A DNA stretch of 64,000 nucleotides from Mytilus edulis (Eukaryota). The position numbers were made by a program. The DNA lies in the NCBI RefSeq assembly GCF_963676685.1, contig NC_092349.1:27280001-27344000 (forward strand). The letters are read 5' to 3'. Positions 27,001-33,000 of the stretch are shown here, piece after piece; the stretch's first letter is position 1, and each line of letters starts with the position of its first letter.

Positions 27001-30000
27001 GTAGTACTTACATTTCTATTATAGAATATAATCACTGCTGCTAAAGCAAGGGCGACAACTCCTACTCCAGACAGTATATATGGCAAATAGTTAGTACGCT
27101 GTAACAATAACCATCACTGTCATGATTAATACCACGTTATCATGTAGCATTTATTCTTACAAATACACATTAATGCAAAGGATGGCGTAGTTTGGCAGTA
27201 TTTCAGATATTTATGAAATTATAGTGAATGCGTTTGGAACTTGCAAAACTGTTTCTGAATTTGAATGGAACCAATTAGTGCATGTATTTAAAATAATTTA
27301 ACGTTTTCTGAATATCGGAAAAAAAGCTATACGAGTAGTTTATTTACTTCCAGACATACACTCACTCAGTTCAAAATTTATATAATTATAAAATACATAC
27401 TGTACACCTGTCGCCTATTTTCACTTCAAACGAATAGCTATAATATAATCGAAAGTATATAATATCAGTAATACTTATTAATAATCTTGTATTAATTTAT
27501 GCGGGTTGTGTTTTTGCTAGATGTAACCTAATGTCATTGGTTGTGTATTTTTCTCATGACAGTAATGATCATGACTTACATGTATGTCCATCGTTTACAT
27601 TTTAGTAAACTTCTATTATACTACTTTGTGTGATTGATTTAATCATTTCTACACTAATATAATGTTTTTGAGTTAGTCCTCTAAAAAGGTTTTCCTCATA
27701 ATAATGTGTGCTTTTTACTATGCTCAACATATATACATGATATAATTAACATAGATACTCAAAAATGACAATCGTATTTCTAGTGAAATTATCAGACGAT
27801 GTAATAGTTGTAACGAATTTGAAGATGAATATCGTTTCTTTCTTTTTTGTCTTTGTAATTGTTTATTGAAAGTACAAAAAGATTCCAAATTTCGACACAA
27901 GATGTCGATCGGATCTTCATGATTTTTTGTCTGGTTAACTGTAGTTTACTGTTGACGACAAGTTTTCTTATTTTGTATACATTTATAGAAGCCTTTGTTC
28001 TTTATTAAATAGTGAGATAAAAGACCAAACTCTTCACTTGTTTAAACCTACATATGTCGGATAGATCAATCTCAAGTTCTTACTGAAAGAATAACTTAAG
28101 GTGGTACCCAACACCTTCACTAAAAATAATTTGGCTCGTTTAATTTTCAAAAATTTTTGACAAAGTATTTACTTTGACCCTTTGACAGAAATATAAAAAT
28201 TTCAAAAAATTTGAACCGACTAATTTATCAGAAAAATTACACTGGTTACATAACAGTTTGACTAACACTAATTTTGATCATTGAGAAGCTTAATATTCCC
28301 TAACCAATACAACGTAATTAAAACGTTCAGCTGATTTTACAGAGTTATCTCCTTGTAGTGTTAGGTACCACCTTAAGTCAACAATGTTGAGGTTATTAAA
28401 AGTATATTCATATTACTTGTTGTTAGAGTTTTGTGCCTGTTCGATATTTTCAATCTTGCACGTTGCAGTTGGGCGTTTTAGACAAGTAGCATTCGGACCG
28501 TGCTCGGGAGGATTTTCGCACAAAGTGTAGATTTCTTTTCCAAAGTAGACTTTTCCTTTGATTAAATTTATGAACTGAAAATAAATATAATAAAAAAAAG
28601 TAGCCATTATTTCAACATTGTATGGTGTATTGAACAATTGACCTAATGGCATGGTTAATCTCACTGCATCACTATTGAAATAAATTTCTTCATTGTCTAA
28701 ATGGAGATAACTGTCATTCCCTAAAGGGGCTAAAAGGTTATAGTGATCCTATAGATAATAATAAAAAGATGTGGCGTGCGCTTGCAATTGAAATGTTTCA
28801 TATTTTCATGGCGGGGCCTTTTATAGTCCACTATACACTATGGTATTTTCTCATTGTTTAAGGTCGTATGGTTGCATATACAAGTATATAAATTGCTTTT
28901 ATTCACTTTATTTGAATTTTGGTGGGTATACTTTTAGTTGTCTCATTTGCAATCATACCACATCGCCTTCTTTTTGTATTCACTAAAATATACTGAATAA
29001 TGCATTTATAATTATAGTATGTTTGTCGACCAATATTATACAATTATAATTACCTTTTCGCTGCACTTAAACACATGTTTATAGCCAATAATTGGTTCGA
29101 ATTTGTGTGAAAAGCAGGTGCTAGTTGCATTCATATCACAACTGAAATTATAAGAGACAAACATTTTAAGCAATTCTTGTTATAAAGATGTTTTACATAT
29201 GAGTGAAATTGTATCTTTTTATTATTAAAGGGACCTCCGTGGCTGAGGTCAAAGAAGTTGAAATACTGTACCACAAGCCAGCAGTCCAAAACTGAGGTTG
29301 TGCGTTCGAATCCTGCACGTGATAGGTGCAATCGACACTAATCTTAATTGATTATGATTGTCAGTTTTACTTCCATCAAAAACAATATCCGATTTTTGCT
29401 TGTCTGTAGTAAACTATGATCTTGTATAGCTGATTGTATACGAATATGATTTTGCTCATTGTTGAAAGCTGTATTTAAACATAGCTACATATAGAGTTAA
29501 ATCGGGTCATTTTGGACATTGACAATCATACCACATCACCTTAGTTTTATATTTCAATTCAATTCAATTCAAAGTTTTATTGCCATATAAACTTTACAGT
29601 TTGTGACATATAACAAAAACAAAAACAAATAAAAGACAATAACTAAGTAACTCAATATATATATATATGTGTATATTACATTAATTTGTATATAATTATT
29701 TTCTGTGACTGTATATTACATTAATTTGTAGGGTCCTTTACTATAGATAATTTAGCTGATCTGTAACAATAACATCTTCATGCCTTATATATCATGTACT
29801 GTAGTACGCCGCTAGATTAAAACTGACGAGGAAAGGTAACACACAATGTAATATACAGTCACAGAAAATAATTATATACAAATTAATGTAATATACATAT
29901 ATATATATATATTGAGTTACTTAGTTATTGTCTTTTATTTGTTTTTGTTTTTGTTATATGTCACAAACTGTAAAGTTTATATGGCAATAAAACTTTGAAT

Positions 30001-33000
30001 TGAATTGAATTGTGTATATATACATATACAACTCGTCTAAACATCAACCCAACAATGTTAGATCTGTAAATTTGCTTTCGCAAATTTTTGGTTCTTCCCT
30101 CGCTGGGATTCGAACTCATGCTACTGTGATATCGTGACACCAAATCGCCTGCACTGCAGCCGTCCCGCTAGACCACACGACCACCTGGGCTCTCAAAAAA
30201 AAAAATTTCGCTGGCCGTGTGTTACCTTTCCTCGTCAGTTTTAATCTAGCGGCGTACTACAGTACATGATATATAAGGCATGAAGATGTTATTGTTACAG
30301 ATCAGCTAAATTATCTATAGTAAAGGACCCTACAAATTAATGTAATATACAGTCACAGAAAATAATTATATTTATAAGTACGTCTGAGTCAGTGACAACT
30401 CTACAACAGATGTATCCATCGGATCGCCATCAATGATGGTGATACAGCAAATTTACAGATCTAACATTGTTGGGTTGATGTTTAGACGAGTTGTATATAC
30501 ATTATGTACACAGCCATGTATCACCATCATTGATGGCGATCCGATGGATACATCTGTTGTAGAGTTGTCACTGACTCAGACGTACTTATAAATATAATTA
30601 TTTTCTGTGACTGTATATTACATTAATTTGTAGGATCCTTTACTATAGATAATTTAGCTGATCTGTAACAATAACATCTTCATGCCTTATATATCATGTA
30701 CTGTAGTACGCTGCTAGATTAAAACTGACGAGGAAAGGTAACACACGGCCAGCGAAAGCTCTTTTTTTTTGAGAGCCCAGGTGGTCGTGTGGTTTAGCGG
30801 GACGGCTGCAGTGCAGGCAATTTGGTGTCACGATATCACAGTAGCATGGGTTCGAATCCCGGCGAGGGAAGAACCAAAATTTGCGAAAGCAAATTTACAG
30901 ATCTAACATTGTTGGGTTGATGTTTAGACGAGTTGTATATACATTATGTACACAGCCATGTATCACCATCATTGATGGCGATCCGATGGATACATCTGTT
31001 GTAGAGTTGTCACTGACTCAGACGTATATTTATATATATATATATATATATACAACTCGTCTAAACATCAACCCAACAATGTTAGATCTGTAAATTTGCT
31101 TTCGCAAATTTTTGGTTCTTCCCTCGCCGGGATTCGAACCCATGCTACTGTGATATCGTGACACCAAATCGCCTGCACTGCAGCCGTCCCGCTAGACTAC
31201 ACGACCACCTGGGCTCTCAAAAAAGAGCTTTCGCTGGCCGTGTGTTACCTTTCCACGTCAGTTTTGATCTAGCGGCGTACTGCAGTACATGATATTTAAG
31301 GCATGAAGATGTTATTGTTACAGATCAGCTAAATTATCTATAGTAAAGGATCCTACAAATTAATGTAAGATACAGTCACAGAATATATATATATACAAAT
31401 TAAGGTAAAATTAAAGGGTCCCCTGTCCTCAGTTCCATTTACTTCTTTATAAAGGATCCTAGTTTATTCACTTGTGTTGCTGTTGATGGGTGAAGTATAT
31501 ATATATATATATTGGTATTTTGTTTATTTCTGTTTAGATACTAGTTTGCAGTAGACTCGATATTTTGGAAGTTTGTAATTTACATTAAAGTAAGGGGAAC
31601 AAACCTTACAAATTCTGCCCAATAGTTAAGTTTTATACTTAGTGAGAAAAAAAATCACAGAAATAACGAACTCCAAGGAAAGTTCAAAACGCAAAGTCCC
31701 AAATCAAATGACAAAATCAAAAGCTCAATCACATCGAGCGAATGGATAACAACTGTCATATTCTTGACTTGGTACAGGCAATTATTCATGCAGAAAATAG
31801 TGGATTAAACCTTAATTGTGTTATAGCTAGCTAAAGCTTTCACTCGTATGGTAGTCGTATAGAATTCCATATGTGAACAAAACTAACAGAAATAATAGGT
31901 TGAAATGTCAAAATAGGGGTACAACATTAAAAATTGTATTATTATAATCATAATCACTATAAAACACAAAAGGGTATATAGGCAAGGCACATAAGCAAAA
32001 AAGAAAGACAAAAATACAAAAACTTAGCATAGCACAATTATAACACAATGTCGGGATGTACAAATACAGAGCCACGTCAAATGGATATAACACAAAATAC
32101 ATTAAACAATAAAAGAAATATTGAATTAAAAGAATACTATTAACACCGTGTATTATTATGTGAAGTTAATACGGAATATTTATTAACAAGGTATCTTCCG
32201 ATGAACTTTTTTTTTTAAAAGGACGAGACGTTCTTTGACATAACCCTGGTTCATCAACTTTCAACTCAGACACTAGTGGAGTTTAACAAAGTCTGAGTAG
32301 TAGCTGCAAGCTCTTGAATAATGACCGAATAAGTAAGGAAATGTATATATACAATATACAGGCGAAGTTGGTATATTGCTGGAAAAATGATAATTTTAAA
32401 ATTAAAATCGTCTCTTTTGCCATAGTGGCTGGTTCTGAGATGACCGTGTATGTCAAATTCGAGGTATTAGTCCTAAAAAAAAGGCTGAGGAAGCCGTGTC
32501 TGTTGATTTTTTTATTTCTAGTTCTGGGGGATCTATTAATGGAACCCAATCAGAAAATTTTGTGTTGGTAATGGAAAGAACTTCATAAATACCTATATGA
32601 ATGTGACATTAAACGACAAGGCTTTTTTTTTATCTTCTTGTTTTAGATAAGTGTCGTAAGGAACTCCAATTCATATGAAAATAAAAAGAGGTCGGCAAGG
32701 AAAAAGTATATCTACAGTTACATTTTTCCACATGAGCGTTTTAAAATATCCCTATATACCAACAAGAACACATTATTGCAACATCATTAATGTAGAGATA
32801 ATTTGTGAACATTTGGTATAAAAGAACATATAATTTTACGAAACCTTATTTATGTTATAGAACAATATTATGTTCTGATGTGTTTTGAAAAACAAAATAC
32901 TAACCCACGGCCAGTACATACTTCGATTGTCACGTTATCACAAGACCCGGGACACGATGCGCTTAAAATTTCGATACTCGTCCCTTGGATGAAATCTGTA

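What the first reader, a model, noticed from the sequence alone, without database searches (positions are those of the whole stretch)
29670..31396. 442-nt circularly permuted, Pol III-promoter-bearing repeat: candidate new circular-RNA retroelement
Seen: near-identical copies in +,-,+,- order. One run is 1.3 units long (30447-31026, period 442) with a seamless unit junction. Sense 3' ends fall at different TA-rich points of the unit and merge into (TA)n. The tRNA-Leu-like A/B boxes (30782, 30849) lie inside the copies, not at the 5' end as in an ordinary SINE, and a T9 run (30762-30770) sits just before the head, so a Pol III transcript of a tandem would be about one unit long (an internal T4 is a caveat). 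There is no protein-like ORF. Known: retrozymes are 170-400-nt-scale non-coding units copied from circular RNA into partial tandems, thought to use Penelope-type RTs, and PLE remnants are abundant here. Inference: a non-autonomous element copied by rolling reverse transcription of an RNA circle, lacking a canonical hammerhead. I cannot check whether it is already in repeat libraries.
Basis: partly seen in the sequence, partly recalled or inferred. Interest (0 to 1): 0.8.

Follow-up and report, generated by a model that had tools for sequence, protein, structure and literature searches.

The report
Tandem and inverted bivalve SINE cluster
A short non-coding mobile element with a tRNA-type promoter sits here as tandem and inverted copies inside a TA repeat, a layout already known for retroelement insertions in bivalves, so it is not good evidence for a new RNA-circle element.

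Summary
The repeat geometry is real. Copies A(+), B(-), C(+) and D(-) span 29668-31411 at 94-100% identity. C is 1.34 units of 442 nt with a seamless junction. It has an exact B box, a T9 run before the tRNA-like head, no ribozyme and no protein match. The window holds no other copy.

Translated chance ORFs of the unit found 15 relatives on other public contigs, so the family is dispersed. Two outside copies start at the tRNA-like head with unrelated DNA upstream. Outside 3' ends fall at two fixed TA-rich points: unit position 37-62 (six copies) and about 142 (three or four). Some outside copies do carry the S->U and U->head joins, and one has a tandem head plus an inverted copy.

Partial tandems, abutting inverted 5'-truncated copies, (TA)n targets and no hammerhead are the published insertion signature of Penelope-like elements, notably the Naiads that dominate bivalve genomes. 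One palindrome here also duplicates 135 nt of non-repeat flank, so DNA-level rearrangement acted too.

Best reading: an ordinary tRNA-headed SINE family in a compound insertion cluster, possibly copied by a Penelope-like enzyme from linear RNA. An RNA circle is not needed and not excluded (about 7%).

The parts
29555..29689 (+). X: 135 nt of non-repeat flank. It forms the left arm of a palindrome together with the first bases of copy A.
   Evidence: the repeat finder I2. 167/168 identical to its inverted copy. Apart from its opening simple repeat (one 29-nt hit at about 8900-8930), X is not found elsewhere in the window.
29668..29844 (+). Copy A: an extension of about 22 nt, then u146-300. It is cut at u300 by the fold-back.
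   Evidence: 155/155 identical to B. The extension repeats an internal segment (u166-186) and is shared with D only.
29845..29899 (-). A': an inverted copy of the extension plus u146-178.
   Evidence: (I2, I13).
29878..30012 (-). X': the inverted duplicate of flank X.
30011..30446 (-). Copy B: u71->442->66, that is part of S, then U, the T12 run, the head, and the short 3' end in TA-rich DNA.
   Evidence: 96.6% identical to C; its S part is 75/75 identical to C.
30447..31040 (+). Copy C: u1->442->150, 1.34 units. It is a 5'-truncated unit followed by a unit that ends at the long 3' end.
   Evidence: (D5, spacing 442).
30503..30591 (+). S (u57-145): the 89-nt segment that separates the short and long 3' ends. 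It occurs again at 30945-31025 and in part at 30372-30446 (-).
   Evidence: Unrelated to the rest of the unit. Present in 8 of 14 sense-strand copies outside the window.
30592..30770 (+). U (u146-324): the 179-nt segment between the long 3' end and the head, ending in T9 (30762-30770). The first T4 run is at 30601-30604.
   Evidence: The U->head join is also seen in P0130 and P0137, and the S->U join in P0126.
30771..30876 (+). tRNA-like head, with A-box-like sites at 30782 and 30790 and an exact B box at 30849-30859.
   Evidence: B box. No tRNA model match.
30877..30896 (+). 8-bp hairpin with a GAAA loop across the u442/u1 point. The B/C breakpoint at 30446/30447 falls at the start of its 3' arm.
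   Evidence: strand folding, DNA: -6.8 kcal/mol, z -6.1, 0 of 200 shuffles as good.
31026..31043 (.). TA-rich stretch with a (TA)n run between the 3' ends of C and D (tail-to-tail).
31044..31411 (-). Copy D: an extension of about 17-20 nt, then u146->442->56. It is the most diverged copy and is flanked by (TA)n on both sides.
   Evidence: 94-95% identical to A, B and C. (TA)n at 31031-31052 and 31383-31395.

Best explanation
This is a cluster of copies of a dispersed, non-coding, tRNA-headed SINE family in a pteriomorph (mussel-like) bivalve genome. The copies sit in and around a (TA)n microsatellite.

Anatomy of the family:
- Simple copies start at the tRNA-like head (u~322-332).
- They end at one of two TA-rich sites. 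The short form is about 175 nt and ends near u56. The long form is about 265 nt and ends near u142-150, just before the first T4 run.
- Compound copies also carry a 179-nt segment U, which ends in a T-run and abuts the next head.

Inferred mechanism:
- Pol III starts at the head and stops at T4, or reads on to the T-run.
- A retroelement enzyme nicks (TA)n and primes cDNA on internal TA-rich stretches of the RNA. This would give the two fixed 3' ends and variable 5' truncation.
- Template switching from the 5' end of one RNA to the U-tail of another, or a multi-unit transcript, would give the T-run|head join and the partial tandem.
- Priming from both strands of the break would give inverted copies that meet at their truncated 5' ends, as B and C do.

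This layout is the published signature of Penelope-like elements, above all the hammerhead-less Naiads that target (TA)n and dominate bivalve genomes. A PLE is therefore the likeliest mobiliser.

At least one later DNA-level fold-back (X/A/A'/X') was added. No circular RNA is required.
For: Shown:
- The geometry and identities of the copies.
- The family is dispersed. The chance ORF of the unit (P0121) found 4 proteins among 151 candidates. The antisense-ORF profile found 1 among 8 candidates. A profile search of 1.84 billion representatives found 13, of which 10 were new. That makes 15 outside copies, mapped on the unit in all frames by tblastn.
- 5' boundaries outside the window, 7 informative. 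At the head with unrelated upstream DNA: 2 (P0133, directly after a TA repeat; P0136). Truncated in the body: 3 (P0125 at u432, P0131 at u26, P0135 at u35). U upstream of the head: 2 (P0130, P0137).
- 3' ends outside the window. At u37-62: 6 (P0133, P0134, P0136, P0137, P0139, P0140). At about u142: 3 clear (P0124, P0131, P0132) and 1 probable (P0123). Running on into U: 1 (P0126).
- P0137 shows U->head, a second tandem head, then TA, then an inverted copy. So compound tandem and inverted layouts recur at another locus.
- (TA)n association: 5 of the window's 8 runs lie at the cluster.
- No ribozyme.
- Bivalve host: named relatives of the neighbouring LINE's reverse transcriptase are from Mytilus galloprovincialis (80% identity over 59% of the query) and Pinctada imbricata (60-65%).

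From the literature:
- PLE hallmarks are frequent 5' truncation, partial tandems, an adjacent inverted 5'-truncated copy, a 30-40-bp tail and microsatellite targets. Naiads use (TA)n, lack hammerheads and dominate bivalve genomes. Non-autonomous relatives make head-to-tail multicopy insertions (PMC8557442, passages).
- A purified PLE protein cleaves and extends both strands of AT-rich DNA and starts reverse transcription inside the RNA (PMC11167929, abstract and passages).
- Tandem and palindromic SINE structures are described in bivalve genomes (PMC11481361, passages).
Against: - No PLE coding remnant was found in the window, and no PLE sequence was at hand. So the defining 3'-end similarity between the element and a partner could not be tested.
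- An APE-type LINE is present in the window and could be the partner instead.
- None of the 4 local copies starts at the head.
- U is not explained by a simple SINE. It follows a T4 run that should stop Pol III, and no copy ending at the T-run next to flanking DNA was seen.
- The X/X' palindrome cannot come from retroposition.
- The outside copies are known only as predicted peptides from unnamed contigs. Boundaries are read at amino-acid resolution, and their organisms are unknown.
- The A-box match and the head's tRNA origin rest on motifs only.
- Template jumping by such enzymes is recalled knowledge, not checked here.
Confidence: 0.5

Rival explanations
1. Purely local DNA rearrangement. 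One composite insertion (SINE plus neighbouring DNA) at a fragile, hairpin-forming (TA)n site was copied by successive fold-back (inverted) and tandem duplications. The +,-,+,- order and the 442-nt period would then say nothing about how the element moves.
For: - All 9 BLAST rows lie within 1.8 kb and none in the other 62 kb.
- The palindrome I2 includes 135 nt of non-repeat flank at 167/168 identity.
- Arms nearest the centres are identical: S 75/75, u1-135 135/135, A=B 155/155.
- The B/C breakpoint lies in a strong hairpin.
- Other joins lie in (TA)n.
Against: - The S->U and U->head joins, and a tandem-plus-inverted layout, recur on other contigs (P0126, P0130, P0137). So they are family features, not accidents of this locus.
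- The S palindrome is no more stable than shuffles (z -1.2), and the I2 breakpoint is not in a hairpin.
Confidence: 0.2
2. Helenus-type TRIM (TRIMp3). The block u146->442->~69 would be an LTR carrying a tRNA-like Pol III promoter, and S a short internal region. C would be an LTR-internal-LTR array and D a solo LTR. Unit-length RNA (LTR plus internal) is what any LTR element makes.
For: - The promoter lies about 180-200 nt inside the repeated block.
- The block's ends read TG...CA, with 8 of 9 terminal bases inverted (read).
- Helenus has tRNA-like sequence inside its LTRs. 51 families are reported in Pteriomorphia including Mytilida, and tandem arrays are seen (PMC10886601).
- Cassandra forms LTR-internal arrays (PMC7215508).
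Against: - There is no TGG-type primer-binding site within 5 nt of the block's end, and no polypurine tract before the next block (read).
- C's block lacks the ~20-nt extension that A and D carry.
- At 353-375 nt the block is longer than the longest reported Helenus LTR, 323 bp.
- Outside copies start at the head (2) or end after S next to unrelated DNA (3-4), which an LTR element would not do.
- No target-site duplication can be read in (TA)n.
Confidence: 0.08
3. A unit-length Pol III transcript (head to T-run) is circularised, and a reverse transcriptase runs round the circle. This would give permuted copies longer than one unit.
For: - All four joins of the circle exist, inside and outside the window.
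- The T-run directly precedes the head.
- As a circle the unit folds better than shuffles (z -3.4 and -3.3; 67% and 59% of bases paired).
- Mussels make abundant retrozyme circles of 350-390 nt (PMC7229834).
Against: - There is no hammerhead or other self-cleaving motif. The known route needs ribozyme-made ends for the tRNA ligase (PMC7229834).
- A Pol III transcript has a 5' triphosphate and a 3' U-tail (established knowledge).
- A T4 run lies within the path.
- Ends cluster at the head and at two TA-rich sites.
- The T-run|head join is the most variable part of the unit, as expected for repeated end-joining rather than an inherited circle junction.
- The flank duplication X/X' is not explained.
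Confidence: 0.07
4. A 442-bp satellite-like unit spread as DNA, by short arrays moved through extrachromosomal circles or by a Helitron/Helentron-type carrier as for other bivalve satellites. Separately, part of the palindromes could be an assembly artefact.
For: - The joins of the unit are conserved on several contigs.
- The arms are very similar.
- An assembly gap lies 2.5 kb away at 33938-34037.
- Carriage of bivalve satellites by Helentrons is recalled, not checked here.
Against: - The longest array seen is 1.34 units.
- Many outside copies are single, 5'-truncated and end at fixed sites, which is typical of retroposition.
- No Helitron-type ends were recognised by eye.
- Arms differ by 3-6% in B/C and C/D, so these two are not artefacts of a single read.
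Confidence: 0.1

Closest known systems
tRNA-derived SINEs of bivalves, including their tandem-like and palindromic arrangements (PMC11481361)
   Same: - An internal A/B-box promoter in a head.
- Non-coding and dispersed.
- Frequent 5' truncation and a simple-repeat tail.
- Direct multimers and palindromes of SINEs are documented in bivalve genomes.
   Different: - Some copies carry 179 nt (U) that links the 3' end to the next head.
- No target-site duplications can be read.
- The head fails tRNA models.
- I could not compare it with the published SINE library, which is in supplements, or with Dfam and Repbase.
Penelope-like elements of the Naiad clade and their non-autonomous derivatives (PMC8557442; PMC11167929)
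   Same: - Partial tandem with a 5'-truncated upstream copy.
- An inverted 5'-truncated copy abutting it.
- (TA)n targets that hide target duplications.
- No hammerhead, and a bivalve host.
- Cleavage and extension of both strands, and internal initiation of reverse transcription.
   Different: - No PLE gene or remnant is in the window.
- 3'-end similarity to a PLE was not tested.
- A Pol III/tRNA-type promoter is not described for PLE dependants in the papers I read. Two searches (listings only) named no such SINE.
- The extension seen here is about 20 nt, not 30-40 nt.
Metazoan non-LTR retrozymes (PMC7229834; bioRxiv 10.64898/2026.07.22.740005)
   Same: - Non-coding units within the reported 150-450 bp range, with low GC (39.8% here).
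- Partial tandems.
- Found in mussels and linked to PLEs.
   Different: - The defining type I hammerhead in each unit is absent.
- A Pol III-type promoter is present instead.
- Ends are fixed.
Helenus / Cassandra (TRIMp3) (PMC10886601; PMC7215508)
   Same: - A small-RNA-type Pol III promoter inside a repeated block.
- Block-spacer-block arrays.
- Present in Mytilida.
   Different: - No primer-binding site, no polypurine tract and no 4-bp duplication.
- Many family members start at the head or end after S.
Schistosome Sm-alpha repeats
   Same: As I recall, a SINE-like tandem repeat of about 335 nt with Pol III boxes.
   Different: As I recall, it carries an active hammerhead. This element has none.

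Membership tests
Metazoan non-LTR retrozyme | A type I hammerhead ribozyme in every repeat unit | tested here: not met
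   Rfam found no hammerhead or other ribozyme at E<=10 on 4 kb, at E<=10 on the 594-nt 1.34-unit run, or at E<=0.1 on the whole window. A core-like motif seen by eye near 30725-30775 fails helix II and the A15.1-U16.1 pair, and it is mutated in D.
Metazoan non-LTR retrozyme | Short tandem repeats (150-450 bp) of low GC | tested here: met
   Period 442, 1.34 units, GC 39.8%.
Metazoan non-LTR retrozyme | Expressed as circular RNA | not testable with these tools
   No RNA data were available.
tRNA-derived SINE (SINE2) | Internal Pol III A and B boxes in a tRNA-related head | tested here: inconclusive
   The B box is exact in C and D and has one mismatch in B. The A box is 9/11 by eye against a recalled consensus. 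No tRNA model match.
tRNA-derived SINE (SINE2) | Copies begin at the head, or are 5'-truncated versions of such copies | tested here: inconclusive
   Outside the window, 2 of 7 informative boundaries are at the head and 3 of 7 are truncated in the body, but 2 of 7 have U upstream. Inside the window, 0 of 4 copies begin at the head.
tRNA-derived SINE (SINE2) | Defined 3' end with a simple-repeat or LINE-like tail | tested here: met
   There are two fixed TA-rich ends. Near u37-66: B, D and 6 outside copies. Near u142-150: C and 3-4 outside copies. No similarity to the window's LINE was found.
tRNA-derived SINE (SINE2) | Dispersed, multi-copy | tested here: met
   15 related predicted peptides come from other contigs. 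There are none elsewhere in this 64-kb window.
tRNA-derived SINE (SINE2) | Target-site duplications | tested here: inconclusive
   The flanks are (TA)n, so nothing can be read.
Helenus / TRIMp3 | Primer-binding site next to the 5' LTR and polypurine tract before the 3' LTR | tested here: not met
   Reading: the first TGG lies about 20 nt or more past the block's end, and the bases before the next block are TA-rich, not purine-rich. Complementarity to real bivalve tRNA ends could not be tested.
Helenus / TRIMp3 | Two LTRs with tRNA-like sequence around a short internal part; 4-bp duplications; size 311-1263 bp | tested here: inconclusive
   Block-S-block is present in C. The block (353-375 nt) exceeds the longest reported LTR of 323 bp. 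Duplications are unreadable. Outside copies that start at the head or end after S argue against membership.
PLE-dependent (Naiad-type) insertion | Partial tandem (pseudo-LTR) with an adjacent inverted 5'-truncated copy | tested here: met
   C is a truncated unit followed by a unit. B is inverted and abuts C's 5' end. D lies tail-to-tail with C. P0137 shows the same kind of layout elsewhere. The criterion comes from PMC8557442.
PLE-dependent (Naiad-type) insertion | Insertion into (TA)n microsatellites | tested here: met
   5 of the window's 8 (TA)>=5 runs are at copy ends. P0133 starts directly after a TA repeat.
PLE-dependent (Naiad-type) insertion | Optional 30-40-bp tail at one end | tested here: inconclusive
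   A and D share an extension of about 20 nt at their 5' side, which repeats an internal segment. Its length and side differ from the published description.
PLE-dependent (Naiad-type) insertion | 3'-end similarity to an autonomous PLE of the same genome | not tested
   No PLE sequence was found in the window, and no eukaryotic genome or repeat library could be searched.

The most novel reading that the evidence does not exclude
A hammerhead-less counterpart of retrozymes. A Pol III transcript running from the tRNA-like head to the T-run is joined end to end into a circle of about 442 nt. A Penelope-type reverse transcriptase then copies it round and round into (TA)n sites, giving the permuted compound copies.
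Probability: 0.07. Interest if true: 0.8.

Novelty: new member of a known kind. Interest (0 to 1): 0.33.

Why it matters
As it stands, this is one more SINE family in a bivalve genome, in a tandem and inverted arrangement of a kind already described for bivalve SINEs and for Penelope-like elements.

The part worth following up is the possible link between the two. A SINE with a Pol III promoter that is copied by a (TA)n-targeting, hammerhead-less Penelope-like element would be a new kind of partner for that retroelement class. I put this at about one in three.

Such a partner would also give a small, easily traced template for working out how these enzymes build partial tandems and inverted copies. 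The papers I read call that process unresolved.

Tried and rejected
- Tandem Repeats Finder on 28000-33500 gave 0 rows.
- ARAGORN found 0 tRNA genes in the window.
- A sensitive BLAST for diverged copies in the window found only three 12-13-nt chance matches. The LINE's 3' region gave no match to the unit.
- A local alignment of S against the rest of the unit scored 14 and 13, below the shuffle mean of 17.3. S is therefore not a degenerate repeat of the tail.
- My early idea that S is mere local flank, with the 442 period being block plus flank, is rejected. 8 of 14 sense-strand outside copies run from the body into S.
- My idea that all breakpoints sit in hairpins is only partly upheld. One breakpoint does (z -6.1). 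The S palindrome (z -1.2), the TA run and the I2 breakpoint do not.
- The hammerhead-like core seen by eye is rejected (see the membership test).
- Helitron-type ends and terminal inverted repeats, looked for by eye, were not convincing. The 8/9 inverted termini could be chance in TA-rich DNA.
- A search of paper full texts for a 28-nt stretch of the head found 0 papers.
- Scanning long six-frame translations against Pfam failed because of stop codons. It was replaced by ORF-wise scans.
- The tail of P0123 shows only weak resemblance to the start of U (E 0.2) and to X (E 0.02, low complexity). I did not use it.
- The bacterial/archaeal genome collection and the phage, plasmid and E. coli collections were not searched, because they cannot hold a bivalve repeat.

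Full report
**1. What is in the sequence**

I take the unit as u1-442 = window 30447-30888. BLAST of this unit against the window gave nine rows, all between 29690 and 31394. The pieces are:
- Copy A, + strand, 29690-29844 (u146-300).
- A 33-nt inverted piece, A', 29845-29877.
- Copy B, - strand, 30011-30446 (u71->442->66).
- Copy C, + strand, 30447-31040 (u1->442->150, 1.34 units).
- Copy D, - strand, 31044-31394 (u146->442->56).

The repeat finder gives the 442-nt spacing and three large palindromes. Over the shared block, A and B are 155/155 identical, A-C 98.7%, B-C 96.6%, and B-D and C-D 95.2%. The two copies of u1-135 inside C are 135/135 identical. These matches are far beyond chance (E down to 1e-180).

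No other copy lies in the 64 kb, even with a word size of 7. By contrast, the repeat next door (31630-32700) has 13 diverged fragments across the window.

**2. Details that matter**
- A and D share an extension of about 20 nt before u146. B and C lack it. The extension repeats an internal segment.
- B and D stop at the same point (u56-66) in TA-rich DNA. C stops near u150 in (TA)n.
- B and C abut each other at 30446/30447, so their 'starts' are one junction and not two free ends. That junction falls at the start of the 3' arm of an 8-bp hairpin with a GAAA loop (z -6.1).
- The palindrome 29555-29722 / 29845-30012 includes 135 nt (X) that is not part of the repeat, at 167/168 identity.
- Five of the window's eight (TA)>=5 runs lie at copy ends.
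- The T-run before the head is T12 in B, T9 in C and T6 in D.

**3. RNA features**

The B box is exact in C and D. These are the only 2 exact matches in the window, against 0.05 expected. The A box is a 9/11 match by eye against a recalled consensus.

The head does not score as a tRNA with ARAGORN or with Rfam, even at E<=10 on 594 nt.

No hammerhead, twister, HDV-like or other Rfam ribozyme is found in the cluster or anywhere in the window at E<=0.1.

Folded as a circle, the unit is more stable than shuffles: z -3.4 for the sense strand and -3.3 for the antisense, with 67% and 59% of bases paired. This does not discriminate between the models.

**4. Context**

Pfam scans covered 63 of the 64 stop-to-stop ORFs of >=75 aa (one ORF, 47631-48362 on the minus strand, was left out). 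They also covered 226 of the 234 ORFs of 50-74 aa (eight ORFs inside the LINE were left out).

The scans show one reverse transcriptase, belonging to an APE-type LINE at 50164-53692. They also show host exons (INTS2, Med31, CUB, cofilin, a C2H2 zinc finger). There is no GIY-YIG domain and no second reverse transcriptase. I therefore could not confirm that Penelope-like remnants are abundant here.

The LINE's reverse transcriptase has named relatives in Mytilus galloprovincialis (80% identity over 59% of the query) and Pinctada imbricata (60-65%). The host is therefore a pteriomorph bivalve.

**5. Copies outside the window**

No eukaryotic DNA collection was available. Instead I translated chance ORFs of the unit and searched the protein collections, which also hold spurious ORFs predicted on eukaryotic contigs.
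- The sense ORF 30845-31090 found 4 proteins among 151 candidates.
- A profile of the antisense ORFs of B, C and D found 1 among 8 candidates.
- A profile search of 1.84 billion representatives found 13, of which 10 were new.

I mapped these 15 proteins on a trimer of the unit in all frames with tblastn. The results are as follows.

Body into S. Eight of the 14 sense-strand copies run from the body into S, so S belongs to the element. The other six stop at u37-62 and are followed by unrelated sequence (P0133, P0134, P0136, P0137, P0139, P0140).

After S (about u142):
- P0124, P0131 and P0132 continue with 22-65 unrelated residues.
- P0123 probably does the same.
- P0126 runs on into U, to u199.
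- Three copies are uninformative.

5' side, seven informative boundaries:
- P0133 starts at the head (u~322) directly after a TA repeat.
- P0136 starts at u~332 after 65 unrelated residues.
- P0125, P0131 and P0135 are truncated at u432, u26 and u35.
- P0130 and P0137 have U before the head.

P0137 reads U, head, a second partial head, body to u52, TA, and then an inverted copy.

These boundaries are read from peptides. They are therefore approximate, and the source organisms are unknown.

**6. What this means**

The family behaves as a SINE:
- It has a head at the 5' end.
- 5' truncation is frequent.
- It has two fixed TA-rich 3' ends, giving forms of about 175 and 265 nt.

The long end lies just before the first T4 run (30601-30604). 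That is where Pol III would be expected to stop, by established knowledge of Pol III termination.

It also removes the need for a circle to explain why the promoter lies 'inside' the local copies. In those copies the sequence upstream of the head is the 3' part of a preceding unit.

What remains unusual is segment U and the T-run|head join. Both recur outside the window.

**7. Comparison with what is known**

Papers I read in part describe just this architecture for Penelope-like elements (PMC8557442, passages):
- A high degree of 5' truncation.
- Partial tandems, in which a truncated copy precedes a full one.
- Often an inverted 5'-truncated copy immediately adjacent.
- An optional 30-40-bp tail.
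- Target duplications that cannot be read, because the elements insert into microsatellites.

For the Naiad clade the target is (TA)n. Naiads lack canonical hammerheads and dominate bivalve genomes. Non-autonomous relatives give multicopy head-to-tail insertions.

A purified PLE protein cleaves and extends both strands of AT-rich DNA and starts reverse transcription inside the RNA (PMC11167929, abstract and passages). Priming from both strands of one break predicts two copies with tails outward and truncated 5' ends meeting in the middle. That is how B and C lie, between TA-rich DNA at 30011-30023 and 31026-31043. This step is my inference.

Tandem-like and palindromic SINE structures are also reported in bivalve genomes (PMC11481361, passages).

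**8. Families considered and not adopted**

Retrozymes need a type I hammerhead in each unit (PMC7229834, passages; the 2026 preprint, abstract and sections 3 and 14). None is present.

Helenus-type TRIMs carry a tRNA-like promoter inside LTRs and occur in Mytilida (PMC10886601: passages, and sections 13, 15 and 29). Against membership:
- I found no primer-binding site next to the block and no polypurine tract.
- The block is longer than any reported Helenus LTR.
- Outside copies that start at the head or end after S do not fit an LTR element.

**9. The DNA-level component**

The X/A/A'/X' palindrome has 5' ends outward and duplicates flank. Retroposition does not explain it. It is either a later fold-back duplication or, less likely, an assembly artefact. 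An assembly gap lies at 33938-34037. The B/C and C/D arms differ by 3-5%, so these two are not artefacts of one read.

**10. Verdict**
- The circular-RNA interpretation is not needed and is weakly disfavoured, though not excluded.
- The element is best filed as a new member of the tRNA-headed SINEs, in a compound tandem and inverted insertion cluster at a (TA)n site.
- A Penelope-like partner is a testable and moderately interesting possibility.
- Two literature searches (listings only) named no Pol III SINE tied to a Naiad or other PLE. That is not proof that none is in print.

**Left unchecked**
- Dfam and Repbase.
- The supplements holding the bivalve SINE library and the Helenus consensus sequences.
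- The DNA of the outside contigs.
- The closed metagenome and viral contig collections.
- Any RNA evidence.

Noticed in passing
window 50164-53692 (-): A LINE with two long ORFs. One has a PHD finger plus an APE-type endonuclease (630 aa) and the other a reverse transcriptase (548 aa). The closest named relatives are from Mytilus galloprovincialis and Pinctada imbricata. It lies between two cofilin/ADF-like exons (54308-54682 and 42599-42772, both on the minus strand), so it probably sits in an intron.
   Followed up: partly
window 29215-29420 (+): A second, unrelated tRNA-like stretch with a near-B-box, about 250 nt left of the cluster. It has no other copy in the window.
   Followed up: partly
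window 31630-32700: A dispersed repeat directly right of the cluster, with 13 diverged fragments (73-92% identity) elsewhere in the window. It was not classified.
   Followed up: partly
window 1022-1402 (-), 3941-4195 (+), 12165-12389 and 14149-14313 (+), 34038-34553 (+): Host-gene exons by Pfam: INTS2 N-terminus, Med31, CUB domain pieces (the second below Pfam's cut-off), and weak sub-threshold C2H2 zinc-finger matches just after the assembly gap.
   Followed up: no
window 33938-34037: A run of 100 N (assembly gap or masked stretch), 2.5 kb right of the cluster. It was left as it is.
   Followed up: no
window 34001-40000: Six kilobases with a strong strand bias (AT skew 0.17-0.19, GC skew down to -0.12) and higher GC (0.36-0.40) than the rest of the window. 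No Pfam match was found among its ORFs.
   Followed up: no
window 30725-30775 (+): A stretch that looks by eye like a hammerhead core: a CUGANGA-type heptamer, a GAAA, and a helix closed by the T-run. It fails the core pairings, is mutated in copy D, and is not found by Rfam.
   Followed up: yes
protein P0137 (unnamed contig): Another locus of the same family with U, a head, a second partial head, the body, TA and an inverted copy. This shows that compound arrangements recur. Only the peptide was seen.
   Followed up: partly
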